64,000 bases of DNA from contig JNEM01013221.1 in assembly GCA_000697335.1 (NCBI GenBank), forward strand, positions 1 through 64,000. Direction: 5' to 3'. Under the pieces are notes generated by a model. That model saw only the letters and a list, made by a program, of their open reading frames with translations. It had not been told where the DNA came from and ran no database searches. Made by a program: the position numbers and the translations under genes. Position 1 is the first letter of the stretch, and the number at the start of each line of letters is the position of its first letter. The DNA is from Conidiobolus incongruus B7586. Taxonomy: Eukaryota. This document shows, piece after piece, positions 57,888 to 62,308 of the stretch.

Positions 57888-58504
57888 ATAAGACGTTCAA
57901 ATACTAACATAAATGATATAGACTGTGACATAGAATATATTCCTTAATAAATACGATTCTTTAGAATGTTTTTCATCACATATTTATATTATATATTGTT
58001 AACAGTCTGTTAACAACTACATATTTAGAGTTTTATTTTCAACTTTGTTGTCAAAATAAACATTTAAATTATGAAGTTAAACTGGTTTGTGGTTGATGTA
58101 GTTATATTCAAGCTCAATTTGGATATATTGGTTAGATATATATTAATATTCTTTGCCAAGTATATCAATAAAATAGAATTATTATTACAAATTAATTTTA
58201 TCTCTTCATAACAATATCTTTTAAACTCACTTAAATTACAAAGTATTTATTTTGTGAATAATTGATTAAAATTATATAATATAGAAAATGAACAGTGTAT
58301 TATCTTAATTAATTTGCAAAGATTTTGTGTATTCACTATTATGAATAATTTATATAAATTAATTACAAATAAAGCACTTAAATGATAGCAGCTGTATTAA
58401 GATTATTGTTTAAGTATAATAATCTATTATGTCTAAATTTTAACATATACTATGAACGTTTATTTACTTTAATGAATAAAAATTATAAGAATACAATGAA
58501 TTAT

Positions 58505-61500
58505 CTACCATTTAAGAGATTCAATATCTTCGGCACTAGCACAGTTCTTCCTGTTTGAAGAAGTCAATGGCTGAGTCAAAGTGGATTTAACATTTTCAAA
58601 TTGAGAGATGTCGTTGGACATAGCAGCACGGAACAATTTAGATCCATATTTGGCATACATTTCAGAAACACCACCACCAGCCATCAATCTTTCTTCCATC
58701 TTACTCAATTGGAAGGGAAACTGCTCGCCATTGCATTTGATGATGCGATTAGGTACATCAATTTCAACTTCAGCACCTTCTTGAGCCAATTCGTAGAATC
58801 TTTCATCAGCAAGAGTAATGCCCAAGAGAGACATGTTGGGCTGATTACGAGAGTAAATAAAGGCAAATGACTTGGCAATTACAGCCTTGACACCGGCACC
58901 CTTGAGAGCACGAGGAGCTTCTTCACGAGAGGAACCAGAGCCAAAACCGATGCCACCGACCACAATGTCGAAACCGGCCTTGACCTTTTCAAAGAATTCG
59001 GGACGGTAGTATTGGAATGAGTGGGTACCAAGATCTTCATCGGATGTACCAGGCATAAATTGAGCTGGAATGATAGCATCGGTATCAATGTTGTCTTCAA
59101 ATCTTTGAACCTTTCCTGAAATAACTGGAATTCCAAAGGATTCACCAGAGCCTTCAGCAGCTGAACTTTGACCTTGGGAGGCACCAGTTGGAGTAGAGTC
59201 AGCGTAGAGTGGATTGGGTTCAGAAATTTGGACGGGTTGGTTCTTGTCGAGCCATTGATCAAGCATCTCGGCATAACGTTGACGATCAATACCTTCCAAG
59301 AGTTCTCTGGGGTCGCGAATCTTCATATCGAAACTACTGGCGGCGACGGTAGCAGCACTGGCCAAATTACCAATACTACCCTTACCCATTCTGTTTCTAA
59401 AGTTCCTGTTTTGGGAGCTGAGCCATACTTCACCTTCTTCGGCCTTATCAGCAGCTACAGCAATACAGTATGAGCAGCCAGGAGCACCAATTTCGAAACC
59501 GCATTGTTCATAAACGTCAAGCAAGCCCAATTTTCTCAATTTGGCAACGATGGGAACAGATCCGGGTGTGACCTTACGCTTGCCACCAACAACAGGTACC
59601 CAGCCCTTCTTGAGACCTTGTTCCAAGACAAGACCAGCAAGGATAAGATCTTCTTCAGCAGTGGTACAAGCACCAATGAAACATCCATCGAGTTCTTTGC
59701 CTTCAACTTCTTTGACGGAAACGACATTGTCAGGAGAAGGATAGATGGCAACCAAAGAATCAACCTTGGACAAATCGATGGTATAAGATTCAGCATACTC
59801 AGCATCTTCATCAGCCTTGAAATAAAGAGATGAATTCTTATGCTGAGGAACCTTACGCTTCTGAATGAAAGTTTGAGTAATTTCATCAGCTTCGAAAACA
59901 CCAGCAATACCACCAAATTCGGTGGTCATGTTGGCAATGGCAAATCTAGCATCACAACTGAGGTGCTTGAGGCCAGGACCAGTAAATTCAACAGCTCTTT
60001 CGAAGGCAACAGTGTTACGCTTCAATTCACCCATGACATACAAGATAGTATCCTTACCACCAATACCGAAAGGAGGTTCATTAATAAATCGGATGTTAAG
60101 AACTTCGGGAACTTTGAACCAAGTTTCACCCGTGACCAAAGGCATAAGAACATCAGCAGCACCCAAACCAACAGCAAATGCACCGACAGCACCGGCGGAG
60201 CAACTGTGAGAATCAGCGCCGACAATGACCATACCGGGCTGAGCTCTTTGGCGGTAGAATTCAGTGTGAAGAATAGTTTGATTAGGGCCATAGAAATCGG
60301 TCAAGTTGGCTTCTTTAGCAAACTTTTCAGAAGCAGCAATCAACTCTTTAGGTTTAGGAAGGTGATTGATCTTGGGATCCACGGTATGATCGATAGCAAG
60401 CCAGAATCTATCATTTCTATGAATTCCGGGACGGCCCATCTGTTCGTATGTCTTTTCCATACCTTTCCATGTAAGTTCGGAGGCCAAAGTCCAATCAACG
60501 CGTACACAAATCATATCACCAGGTTTGATATTACCAGGTTCTTCGAGTCCAATGGCAGCATGGCAGAGAATTTTTTCACAAATAGTCATACCTCTTCTGC
60601 CAGGAGGACGCTGGAGAAGAAGCTGCTGACCAACACGTGGACCAGGAGACCTGGATCCAGATCTTCGTTTAATTGAATTTTGAAGGGCTTTGACAATTTG
60701 ATCTCCAATCTCGGCAGTTGAAGCTTGACCGCCCAAGTCTTTCGTCCTGAGCTCAAGACCTCCTGAGCTCTTTTCATCTAAGACTTTACGTACTGCATCT
60801 TCAACCAATTTGGCTTCACTGTGAAGTCCTAAAGAGTATTTGAGGAGCATTGCAGCGCTGAGAATGGTACCAATAGGATTGGCAATACCTTGACCAGCAA
60901 TATCGGGAGCAGATCCATGGATAGGCTCATAGAGACCAAAGCAAGGATTTGCACCATCTGGCAAACCGTTGAGAGAAGCCGAGGGAAGGAGACCCAAACT
61001 TCCAGGAATTACACTTGATTCATCACTCAAGATATCACCAAACATGTTTTCAGTAAGGACGATACCATTCAACTTAGTGGGACGTTGAACCATTAACATA
61101 GAAGCAGAGTCAACCAAGTGGTGATCAAGAGGTACTTGAGGGAATTCTTTCTCAAATACTTCAGTAACAACACGACGCCATAGACGGGAAGTGGCAAGGA
61201 CATTAGCCTTATCAATGGAGTGAACAGCAAGGGGAGGGTTATGTTGAGAAGCCATCGTGCCTGCAAGGCGAGCTATTCTTTGTACTTCGGAAACCTTATA
61301 GGGCATTGTGTCATAAGCTAAATAAATAATTAGATTTTAACTAAAGTAAACTCACAATATAAATTACCTAGACCATCAGCATCTTCTTCTTGTCTCTCGC
61401 CAAAGTAAACACCCCCAACGAGTTCTCTTATGACGATGAATTCAGTACCTTGGACCACTTCAGATTTTAGAGGGCTATTATTTACAAGTGATTGACTGGG

Positions 61501-61930
61501 GAATACACAAGGTCTAATATTAGCAAATAGATCCAACTCTTTGCGAAGGCTCAACAACCCTTGTTCAGGGCGAGGTCCAAGTCCCTTAGAGGAATCGGAG
61601 GGATCTACAGGCTTGGGCCATTGAGGACCGCCAACAGCTCCCAAAAGGATAGCAGTGGCTGATTTACAAGCTTCAGCTGTAGATGGAGGGAAAGGATGAC
61701 CTTTGGATGGGATTAGATAAACCTTTAGTATTGAAGAGTTAGGATTTACCTGTCTGATCAATAGCATGACCACCAAAAGCATGTTCTTCAAATTGAAATT
61801 CCCATGTATCATTGTTTTGAGCAATTACTTCCAAAACTCTTCTAGCTTGAGCGGTGACTTCGGGACCAATCCCGTCACCTGGCAAAACAACAATCTTTGC
61901 TATTTTTTTGCTATTTGTATATGTACTCAT
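58505..61930 (-). CDS. Fusion of 3-isopropylmalate dehydrogenase (Leu2/LeuB) with aconitase-family isomerase large (LeuC-like) and small (LeuD-like) domains; exons 61930-61750, 61700-61368, 61317-58505; ~1108 aa
   Basis: [28 protein letters not shown] and [12 protein letters not shown], then without a stop or intron [51 protein letters not shown] and [10 protein letters not shown]. Confidence 0.93.
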
Positions 61931-62308
61931 TTTATGTATAAGTTAAATTAGTGATAATCGTTAAAATGATAAATAAATATTAAACTTAATGCATGTTATG
62001 GATATTTATAGGATTGCAATTATTTTTAAGGTCAGGGTTTACAATTTCACATGATTTACTCTAAATAGTGTAAGCTGATTGACTTGCCTTATTAGGAAGT
62101 ATCAGATGACCTAGGATTGGACCTAAATTCTGACGTGGTTTGAATCATTAAAATTATAACTAAAAAGACGCCCCATTCAGACATAAATATTTCGTATAGC
62201 TTTGATTTCGAAAGAATTGACGAAATATATAGTTTGATCACTTTTAATCAATTTAATCTTATCAATTATCTTTATCAAACCAATATTAAAATCAATTTTG
62301 ACTATTGG

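What the first reader, a model, noticed from the sequence alone, without database searches (positions are those of the whole stretch)
58505..61930. Leu2 + LeuC-like + LeuD-like triple fusion: isomerase and dehydrogenase in one chain
Seen: a complete fungal-type IPMDH runs, within one 2.8-kb exon, through a basic linker ([16 protein letters not shown]) into a [4Fe-4S] aconitase-family large domain (Cys in GACTT and GCSYC) and a swivel domain. Codon usage looks like that of a highly expressed gene. Established: LEU1 and LEU2 are separate genes in model fungi. Inference: the isomerase part looks like the short LeuC2/HacA/DmdA-type subfamily rather than canonical fungal Leu1, so this may be a bifunctional, channelling enzyme for leucine synthesis or another 2-oxo-acid elongation route (citramalate/isoleucine, homocitrate).
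Basis: partly seen in the sequence, partly recalled or inferred. Interest (0 to 1): 0.72.

Follow-up and report, generated by a model that had tools for sequence, protein, structure and literature searches.

The report
Ancient two-step leucine enzyme fusion
This fungal gene joins the leucine-pathway dehydrogenase LEU2 to an unstudied iron-sulfur isomerase in one protein that likely runs two consecutive steps of leucine synthesis; the fusion is shared by many early-branching fungi and protists, and the short textbook LEU2 likely arose from it by repeated loss of the isomerase half.

Summary
The fusion is real. It is a three-exon, 1108-aa gene: an intact LEU2-type dehydrogenase, a short linker, and a single-chain LeuC-LeuD-like [4Fe-4S] isomerase ending in Trp. 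It is not rare: 97 of the top 120 homologues span the same layout, across early-diverging fungi, a choanoflagellate and other protists. Relatives have intron-free contigs with A-rich 3' ends, and some chains add LeuA in front. This scan noted the same fusion twice before, on other genomes.

The dehydrogenase half is the fungal LEU2 orthologue. Fused and stand-alone forms interleave in the tree, and AU tests reject either as one clade, which favours an ancestral fusion cut repeatedly. The isomerase is neither Leu1 nor a member of the LeuC2/HacA models. It forms its own clade, whose nearest bacterial members (myxobacteria) cluster with a LeuA-like synthase and a dehydrogenase.

Best reading: a cytosolic isopropylmalate isomerase-dehydrogenase (about 0.6). 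The main rival is an isomerase for another alkylmalate (about 0.3). Channelling is unsupported. Ten literature searches found no description, though the key fungal gene-fusion survey could not be read. Verdict: new variant of a known kind.

The parts
61750..61930 (-). Exon 1 (start codon; dehydrogenase aa 1-60)
   Evidence: (Iso_dh 5.6e-11)
61701..61749 (-). Intron 1, 49 nt, GT..AG
   Evidence: 5 of the listed allele differences fall here; same position in L127 and L166
61368..61700 (-). Exon 2 (dehydrogenase aa 61-171; substrate loop [24 protein letters not shown])
   Evidence: (Iso_dh 6.4e-29)
61318..61367 (-). Intron 2, 50 nt, GT..AG
   Evidence: 2 allele differences; same position in L166
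58505..61317 (-). Exon 3, 2813 nt: rest of the dehydrogenase, linker, isomerase, stop codon
60671..61930 (-). 3-isopropylmalate dehydrogenase module (LEU2 orthologue), aa 1-387, interrupted by the two introns
   Evidence: 14 of 14 catalytic, substrate and cofactor positions present; tree
60593..60670 (-). Basic linker, aa 388-413, variable in length and sequence among homologues, predicted flexible
59306..60592 (-). LeuC-like [4Fe-4S] large module, aa 414-842; cluster cysteines C722 (59668-59666), C786 (59476-59474), C789 (59467-59465)
   Evidence: 4kp1 TM-score by target 0.89, 4kp2 0.92
58652..59116 (-). LeuD-like swivel module, aa 906-1060, with substrate loop AQFMPG and GSSREE
   Evidence: (TIGR02087 118.1 bits, cut-off 108.95)
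58508..58516 (-). C-terminal LKW; terminal Trp resembles the cytosolic Fe-S assembly targeting signal
   Evidence: 113 of 120 homologues end in Trp; signal described in bioRxiv 10.1101/2023.05.19.541488

Best explanation
The gene encodes one 1108-residue chain holding an intact LEU2-type dehydrogenase and a single-chain LeuC-LeuD-like iron-sulfur isomerase, which likely works in the cytosol to turn 2-isopropylmalate into 3-isopropylmalate and then into 2-ketoisocaproate for leucine. Shown: the one-frame layout, the catalytic residues, LEU2 orthology, and purifying selection on both halves. Inferred from family knowledge: the [4Fe-4S] cluster on C722/C786/C789 with dehydration-rehydration chemistry at the large/swivel interface; NAD- and metal-dependent decarboxylation by a dehydrogenase homodimer that carries two tethered isomerase modules; cluster loading through the terminal Trp. 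Inferred from guilt by association: isopropylmalate as the isomerase's substrate. The benefit is more likely fixed stoichiometry and proximity than a true channel. History (inferred): the fusion predates the fungi, and stand-alone fungal LEU2 arose several times by loss of the tail.
For: Dehydrogenase: 14 of 14 key positions in the window's protein and in 62 of 70 non-Pezizomycotina fused homologues (Thermus numbering recalled). Close homologues pass TIGR00169 leuB (453 bits, cut-off 353). Isomerase: the aconitase-family motifs DH, H, DSH, NMxxE, three Cys, NRNxxxR and GSSRE are kept across the alignment, and the fold matches M. jannaschii MJ0499/MJ1003. It is more conserved than the dehydrogenase (mean 72% against 62% identity to the window in 63 homologues). 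Leucine association: 5 of the top 120 homologues (P0107, P0109-P0113 minus none; six ids, five with the LeuA motifs checked) carry an isopropylmalate-synthase-like domain in front, whose best NCBIfam synthase model is PRK00915 (P0111 is Leptophrys vorax). In L140 a stand-alone member lies head to head with a LeuA-like gene. Bacterial sisters have an HMGL-type synthase within about 9 kb in 20 of 22 loci and a decarboxylating dehydrogenase in 17 of 22. The substrate loop is hydrophobic (AQFMPG), like isopropylmalate isomerases (ARYLVY, KQFLLA) and unlike homoaconitase (GPYLRT). One mRNA in relatives: intron-free full-length contigs L128-L130, of which L129 and L130 end in A runs, plus transcriptome-derived EukProt entries. 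No complete stand-alone LEU2 named from Entomophthorales, Kickxellomycotina or Glomeromycota among the best 120 short dehydrogenases. Fused and stand-alone forms interleave: 7 changes on the tree, p-AU 8e-08; without M. alpina 6 changes, p-AU 2e-36 and 6e-75.
Against: No activity data. Whether this genome, or any fusion carrier, also has a canonical Leu1 is untested: no genome is held and the search for fungal Leu1 returned bacterial fusions instead. The active site departs from known isomerases (ASELTW for xx[17 protein letters not shown] for GSCTNGRIEDL, SSREE for SSREH). In bacteria the subfamily coexists with canonical leuC in 11 of 40 genomes, and its neighbouring synthase is only about 30% identical to LeuA and scores equally as homocitrate synthase. 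Ascomycetes keep the module although they have Leu1 (established), with a dehydrogenase that lost the NAD-loop His in 28 of 28 rows, and two such loci lie beside a PEP-mutase/isocitrate-lyase-family gene. The trees are quick IQ-TREE runs; stand-alone rows came from one top-120 list without ascomycete or protist LEU2, and the groups were named after the first tree was seen. No RNA of this organism was examined.
Confidence: 0.6

Rival explanations
1. The dehydrogenase is the leucine LEU2, but the isomerase module works on another alkylmalate (citramalate/citraconate for isoleucine, ethyl- or dimethylmalate, or longer 2-oxo-acid elongation), while a separate Leu1 does the leucine step.
For: Distinct active-site signature. 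Coexistence with canonical leuC in 11 of 40 bacterial genomes. Bacterial clusters with thiolase (15 of 22) or with 2-oxo-acid dehydrogenase E1 subunits. Ascomycete derivatives beside a PEP-mutase-family lyase. M. alpina and Phycomyces have a Leu1-type gene (PMC8880518 Table 1; PMC2904702 passage), so relatives of M. alpina that carry the fusion may hold both. The nearest solved relative, MJ0499/MJ1277, is named isopropylmalate/citramalate isomerase, so broad specificity is likely anyway.
Against: LeuA-LeuB-isomerase chains and the head-to-head LeuA pair tie the module to the leucine synthase. The M. alpina LEU2 seen here is the truncated form (381 aa in 6 of 6 members), which fits replacement by Leu1 rather than coexistence.
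Confidence: 0.3
2. The isomerase is a homoaconitase or aconitase serving lysine or TCA chemistry.
For: HacA-family models and the M. jannaschii homoaconitase subunits are among the top hits. The bacterial neighbour synthase scores as well with homocitrate-synthase models.
Against: No Arg in the swivel substrate loop (the loop's role from PMC7308503 passages; the Arg rule is recalled from Jeyakanthan 2010, not read). TIGR00139 216 bits against a cut-off of 530. The partner dehydrogenase has the isopropylmalate-type Glu-x-x-Leu-Leu loop. The chain starts directly with the dehydrogenase and ends in a cytosolic-type Trp, whereas fungal homoaconitases are mitochondrial (established).
Confidence: 0.04
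3. A strict substrate-channelling machine: 3-isopropylmalate passes between docked active sites. This would add to the best explanation rather than replace it.
For: Consecutive steps in one chain; the fusion has been kept across many lineages.
Against: Linker length varies from a few to about 50 residues. Linker pLDDT is under 50 in both models, and pTM is only 0.68 for the full-length homologue. The tail was lost repeatedly. 3-isopropylmalate is stable and diffusible, and yeast manages with separate enzymes (established).
Confidence: 0.15
4. Assembly or annotation artefact, or a recent dead read-through of two genes.
For: No RNA from this organism was examined.
Against: Contigs bridge the junction; 29 synonymous against 4 non-synonymous allele differences; same layout in 97 of 120 homologues; intron-free full-length contigs in relatives.
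Confidence: 0.01

Closest known systems
Fungal LEU2 / bacterial LeuB, 3-isopropylmalate dehydrogenase (EC 1.1.1.85, TIGR00169)
   Same: All 14 checked active-site positions; nests among fungal LEU2 in the tree; about 60% identity between the close homologue P0004 and stand-alone fungal LEU2s.
   Different: Continues into a 700-residue isomerase instead of stopping at about 380 aa.
M. jannaschii isopropylmalate/citramalate isomerase MJ0499 + MJ1277 (PDB 4kp1, 4nqy, 3vba) and clostridial LeuC2/LeuD2, HacA/HacB
   Same: Short large-subunit type, same fold (TM by target 0.87-0.92), three Cys, small subunit passes TIGR02087.
   Different: Only 32-36% identical; below the large-subunit cut-offs; single chain; own signature (SELTW, ILHTEF, GACTT-EEDL, SSREE); separate clade.
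Yeast Leu1 / canonical LeuC-LeuD (TIGR00170)
   Same: Same proposed reaction; single chain LeuC-LeuD; C-terminal Trp.
   Different: Not orthologous: 144 bits against a cut-off of 560; canonical LeuC rows sit on a distant branch. No fungal Leu1 sequence was in hand for the tree.
Uncharacterised myxobacterial single-chain LeuC-LeuD proteins (L001, L002; also a Schekmanbacteria protein)
   Same: Nearest prokaryotic clade, 47-49% identity, same signature motifs, clustered with synthase and dehydrogenase genes.
   Different: Not fused to the dehydrogenase in any bacterial locus among the 80 metagenome loci; the neighbouring dehydrogenase is the PRK03437 type, 34-38% identical to the window's; no terminal Trp in L001/L002.
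Pathway multi-enzymes such as fungal AROM or the FolB-FolK-FolP fusion (PMC4224340, abstract start in the listing; AROM recalled)
   Same: Consecutive biosynthetic steps in one chain with repeated later fission.
   Different: Different pathway; no such chain was found described for leucine.

Membership tests
3-isopropylmalate dehydrogenase (LeuB/LEU2) | Substrate, metal and NAD residues (E87, L90, L91, R94, R104, R132, Y139, K185, D217, D241, D245, E270, H273, D278; Thermus numbering, recalled) | tested here: met
   14 of 14; alignment to solved IPMDHs
3-isopropylmalate dehydrogenase (LeuB/LEU2) | Passes the TIGR00169 cut-off | tested here: met
   Met by close homologues P0003 and P0004 (454 and 453 bits, cut-off 353). 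The window's exon-3 piece alone gives 249 bits on half the model; the spliced protein was not scanned.
3-isopropylmalate dehydrogenase (LeuB/LEU2) | Orthology to fungal LEU2 | tested here: met
   Nested among fungal stand-alone LEU2s
3-isopropylmalate dehydrogenase (LeuB/LEU2) | NAD-dependent oxidative decarboxylation of 3-isopropylmalate | not testable with these tools
   Needs an assay
Aconitase superfamily Fe-S hydro-lyase | Three cluster Cys plus DH, H, DSH, N..E, NRN..R and SSR motifs; aconitase fold | tested here: met
Canonical LeuC/Leu1 isopropylmalate isomerase | TIGR00170 cut-off and clade membership | tested here: not met
   144 bits against 560; separate branch
LeuC2/HacA/DmdA-type (PRK00402, TIGR01343, TIGR02086) | Large-subunit model cut-offs and the GSCTNGR motif | tested here: not met
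   306/385, 277/386 and 276/410 bits; [10 protein letters not shown] instead; own clade with SH-aLRT 100
LeuC2/HacA/DmdA-type (PRK00402, TIGR01343, TIGR02086) | LeuD/DmdB-type small subunit (TIGR02087) | tested here: met
   118.1 bits against 108.95
Homoaconitase | Arg in the small-subunit substrate loop (YLRT type; rule recalled) and model cut-offs | tested here: not met
   AQFMPG against GPYLRT; TIGR00139 216/530, HacA_Meth 235/550
Isopropylmalate isomerase (EC 4.2.1.33), by activity | Interconverts 2- and 3-isopropylmalate; rescues leu1 | not testable with these tools
   Only contextual support
Cytosolic Fe-S (CIA) client with TCR signal | C-terminal [LIM]-[DES]-[WF] | tested here: inconclusive
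   Terminal Trp present and kept in 113 of 120 homologues, but the middle residue is K here and mostly A in homologues. The paper reports the terminal aromatic as the critical part.
Fungal HtyD / AMT8 / A. fumigatus AcoC 'aconitases' | Sequence kinship with this isomerase clade | not tested
   No sequence could be obtained; only review passages seen; supplement unreadable

The most novel reading that the evidence does not exclude
The ancestor of fungi and animals made leucine with a fused LeuB-isomerase chain whose isomerase belongs to a third, unnamed clade related to myxobacterial proteins. Some protists carry the whole LeuA-B-C-D pathway in one polypeptide. Textbook LEU2 is the stump left at least six times after Leu1 took over the isomerase step, and the freed isomerase was recycled in ascomycetes for other acids.
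Probability: 0.45. Interest if true: 0.68.

Novelty: new variant of a known kind. Interest (0 to 1): 0.5.

Why it matters
It would reverse the yeast-based picture of separate LEU1 and LEU2 as the fungal ground state. It would give a function to a conserved, unnamed aconitase-family clade that databases label variously as dehydrogenase, aconitate hydratase or hypothetical. It also affects metabolic models and auxotrophic-marker design for mycorrhizal, gut, insect-associated and oleaginous early-diverging fungi. A two-plasmid yeast complementation would settle the main question. The interest is capped because the chemistry is most likely ordinary leucine synthesis, the proteins are already in public databases, and this scan has flagged the fusion twice.

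Tried and rejected
Own genome: none held, so stand-alone LEU1/LEU2 could not be checked. RNA: no RNA holder listed. Fungal Leu1 census: a bacterial LeuC fragment searched against longer proteins returned bacterial LeuA-LeuC and LeuC-LeuD fusions in the listed 120, no named fungal Leu1. Docking of the two modules: the complex predictor was not available, so nothing was folded. M. alpina primers: the leuB1 and leuB2 primer peptides match both the stand-alone P0166 and fused Mortierellaceae proteins, so they do not tell which gene the paper studied. Relic test: the 130-240 aa N-terminal extensions of six stand-alone fungal isomerases were scored against a profile of the dehydrogenase tail; only P0378 (14.6 bits) beat all 1200 shuffles, the others did not, so it is inconclusive. 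The careful tree did not finish; quick trees were used. A bacterial origin of the fusion itself was not found. The 280-codon plus-strand frame at 59834-60673 has no Pfam match and is read as a shadow of the real gene. No leucine gene cluster in the window: 16 other frames scanned plus the adjacent DEAD-box helicase are housekeeping or unmatched. ESM Atlas gave only generic aconitase clusters. Sequence look-up in earlier findings gave nothing.
Full report
1. Observation. The window is AT-rich and intron-bearing (housekeeping frames). On the minus strand, 61930-58505 splices through two short GT..AG introns into 1108 codons with one terminal stop. The last exon (2813 nt) runs without a stop from mid-dehydrogenase through the linker into Aconitase and Aconitase_C domains. 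Contigs of four DNA runs, all one sample and possibly the window's source, cover the gene; two bridge the junction and no joint is listed. Of the 40 allele differences listed (45 more not shown), 29 are synonymous, 4 non-synonymous and 7 intronic, which supports both the gene model and selection on both halves. Codon bias is moderate (ENC 43.3; other frames 41-52). The nearest named homologues are Entomophthora, Neoconidiobolus and Massospora at 73-75%, so the organism is likely an entomophthoralean fungus.

2. Distribution. The search scored 7990 candidates, passed 1090 and listed 120. Of the 120, 97 cover the window's protein from residue 60 or earlier to 1000 or later, and 113 end in Trp. 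They come from Zoopagomycota, Glomeromycota, Mortierellaceae, Endogonales, chytrids, Blastocladiomycota, Neocallimastigales, Neolecta and Pezizomycotina, and from Salpingoeca urceolata, Amoeboradix, Ancoracysta (partial), Petalomonas and Leptophrys, plus EukProt entries labelled Phypoly and Nk52. Six entries (P0107, P0109-P0113) add an HMGL-type domain in front; the three scanned score best with isopropylmalate-synthase models among synthases, and five checked keep the synthase motifs. Three metagenome-collection contigs of 3.4-3.7 kb hold the whole fusion without introns, two ending in A runs. I read these as mRNAs, so relatives transcribe the fusion as one message. No RNA of this organism was examined.

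3. Dehydrogenase half. All 14 checked positions are intact, and close homologues pass the leuB cut-off. The best 120 short dehydrogenases (8000 candidates scored) include Basidiobolus, Mucorales, Umbelopsis, several chytrids, basidiomycetes and M. alpina, but no complete named entry from Entomophthorales, Kickxellomycotina or Glomeromycota; many rows are unnamed. In trees of 95 and 48 rows the fused and stand-alone forms interleave roughly along the species tree: Jimgerdemannia (fused) with Umbelopsis and Mucorales, Syncephalis with Basidiobolus, Piromyces among stand-alone chytrids, M. alpina with fused Mortierellaceae. AU tests reject stand-alone monophyly (p 8e-08; 2e-36 without M. alpina) and fused monophyly (6e-75), with 6-7 state changes. 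Long-branch rows (Pezizomycotina, Amoeboradix, Petalomonas, Sorochytrium) were left out of the tested trees, the groups were named after the first tree, and ascomycete and protist stand-alone LEU2s were not sampled. With bacterial roots the deepest eukaryotic rows are all fused, and the isomerase tree recovers the same fungal groups. Repeated loss of the tail is therefore the simpler history. In Pezizomycotina the fused dehydrogenase has decayed: 0 of 28 rows keep the NAD-loop His.

4. Isomerase half. The fold is that of M. jannaschii MJ0499/MJ1003 and aconitase, with cluster and catalytic motifs conserved. It is below the cut-offs of canonical LeuC, LeuC2/HacA and homoaconitase models; only the small-subunit model passes. 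A profile-free search of 1.84 billion representatives shows full-length hits at 41-68% identity, then a drop to 38% or less. The tree gives one clade (SH-aLRT 100) of eukaryotic fused and stand-alone proteins (Achlya, Scheffersomyces, Colletotrichum) next to myxobacterial and Schekmanbacteria single-chain proteins. In the phylum of G002, 40 of 301 genomes carry it (one of the 40, G198, is unpublished and counts only in this tally). Of 40 carriers tested, 11 also have canonical leuC; the genomes are of unknown completeness. In 22 loci examined (L001, L002 and 20 picked for long flanks), an HMGL synthase lies nearby in 20, a decarboxylating dehydrogenase in 17 and a thiolase in 15. So the clade belongs to 2-oxo-acid elongation modules, but the bacterial synthase is ambiguous between isopropylmalate and homocitrate types. 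The fusion itself was not seen in bacteria. The swivel loop lacks the homoaconitase Arg.

5. Mechanism. Most likely (0.6) the chain is cytosolic, dimerises through the dehydrogenase, loads a [4Fe-4S] cluster with help from the terminal Trp, isomerises 2- to 3-isopropylmalate and decarboxylates it to 2-ketoisocaproate. The dehydrogenase step is near certain; the isomerase substrate is inferred from fusion and neighbourhood with LeuA and LeuB. The main rival (0.3) is another alkylmalate with Leu1 present elsewhere; it is favoured by the altered active site, bacterial coexistence with leuC, and ascomycete derivatives beside a PEP-mutase-family lyase. Broad specificity may make both partly true. 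Channelling is not supported: the linker varies and is disordered in both models, and the full-length pTM is 0.68.

6. Literature. Ten full-text searches listed no paper describing the fusion; most hits were seen only as listings and abstract starts. Read in part: PMC8880518 (introduction, Table 1, section 3.1, passages, supplement hits), which lists M. alpina LeuA2 as a Leu1 homologue and LeuB1/2 as dehydrogenases and has no occurrence of 'fusion'. Passages only: PMC2904702, PMC8262921, PMC3556520 (AcoC left unstudied), bioRxiv 10.1101/2023.05.19.541488 (17), PMC7308503, PMC7778625, PMC8102738, PMC9202105, PMC5592239. PMC4977696 had no matching terms and its supplement was unreadable (73, 74). 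Not seen: Leonard and Richards 2012, a survey of fungal gene fusions whose supplement could list this one, Cacho 2012, Tang 2021 and Jeyakanthan 2010 (recalled). Two earlier notes of this scan describe the same fusion on other genomes; they agree with my reading but are not independent support.

7. Verdict. Real, conserved and apparently uncharacterised: a new variant of known leucine enzymes, with an unnamed isomerase clade and a probable fusion-then-fission history. Interest 0.5.

Noticed in passing
P0107, P0109-P0113 (1340-1573 aa; P0111 = Leptophrys vorax): LeuA-like synthase + LeuB + this isomerase in one polypeptide: all three leucine-specific steps in one chain. The synthase match covers only the catalytic part of the LeuA models.
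   Followed up: partly
L001, L002, L107-L126: Myxobacterial cluster of single-chain LeuC-LeuD, a short HMGL synthase (about 30% to LeuA), a PRK03437-type dehydrogenase and often a thiolase or 2-oxo-acid dehydrogenase E1 pair; separate from canonical leuABCD; product unknown.
   Followed up: partly
P0064, P0079-P0106, P0114-P0120 (Pezizomycotina-type): Fused copies whose dehydrogenase lost the NAD-binding loop (Sordariomycetes) or decayed almost wholly (Aspergillus, Penicillium) while the isomerase stays intact.
   Followed up: partly
L137:3497-7756 and L203:4882-8396: Fungal-type derivatives of the isomerase lie next to a PEP-mutase/isocitrate-lyase-family gene (and an MFS transporter in L137): possibly a catabolic hydratase-lyase pair for methylated maleates or malates.
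   Followed up: no
L140:1-2886: Stand-alone isomerase of this clade head to head with a LeuA-like gene that has a Ser/Arg-rich N-terminal extension resembling a mitochondrial presequence.
   Followed up: partly
P0166 cluster (Mortierella alpina, M. antarctica): 381-aa stand-alone LEU2 that groups with fused Mortierellaceae proteins and stops at the start of the linker: a recent fission suited to study.
   Followed up: partly
L198:9494-21777: Bacterial operon-like run: dehydrogenase, HMGL synthase, this isomerase, aminotransferase, PALP enzyme, two ATP-grasp proteins, MFS; looks like a pathway for a non-standard amino acid or peptide.
   Followed up: no
P0244-P0355: Many bacterial LeuA-LeuC fusion proteins (about 850-1000 aa; named ones from Gemmatimonadaceae and Lysobacter).
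   Followed up: no
window 58300-62200: DNA runs show two alleles a few percent apart, so the organism or sample is heterozygous or mixed.
   Followed up: partly
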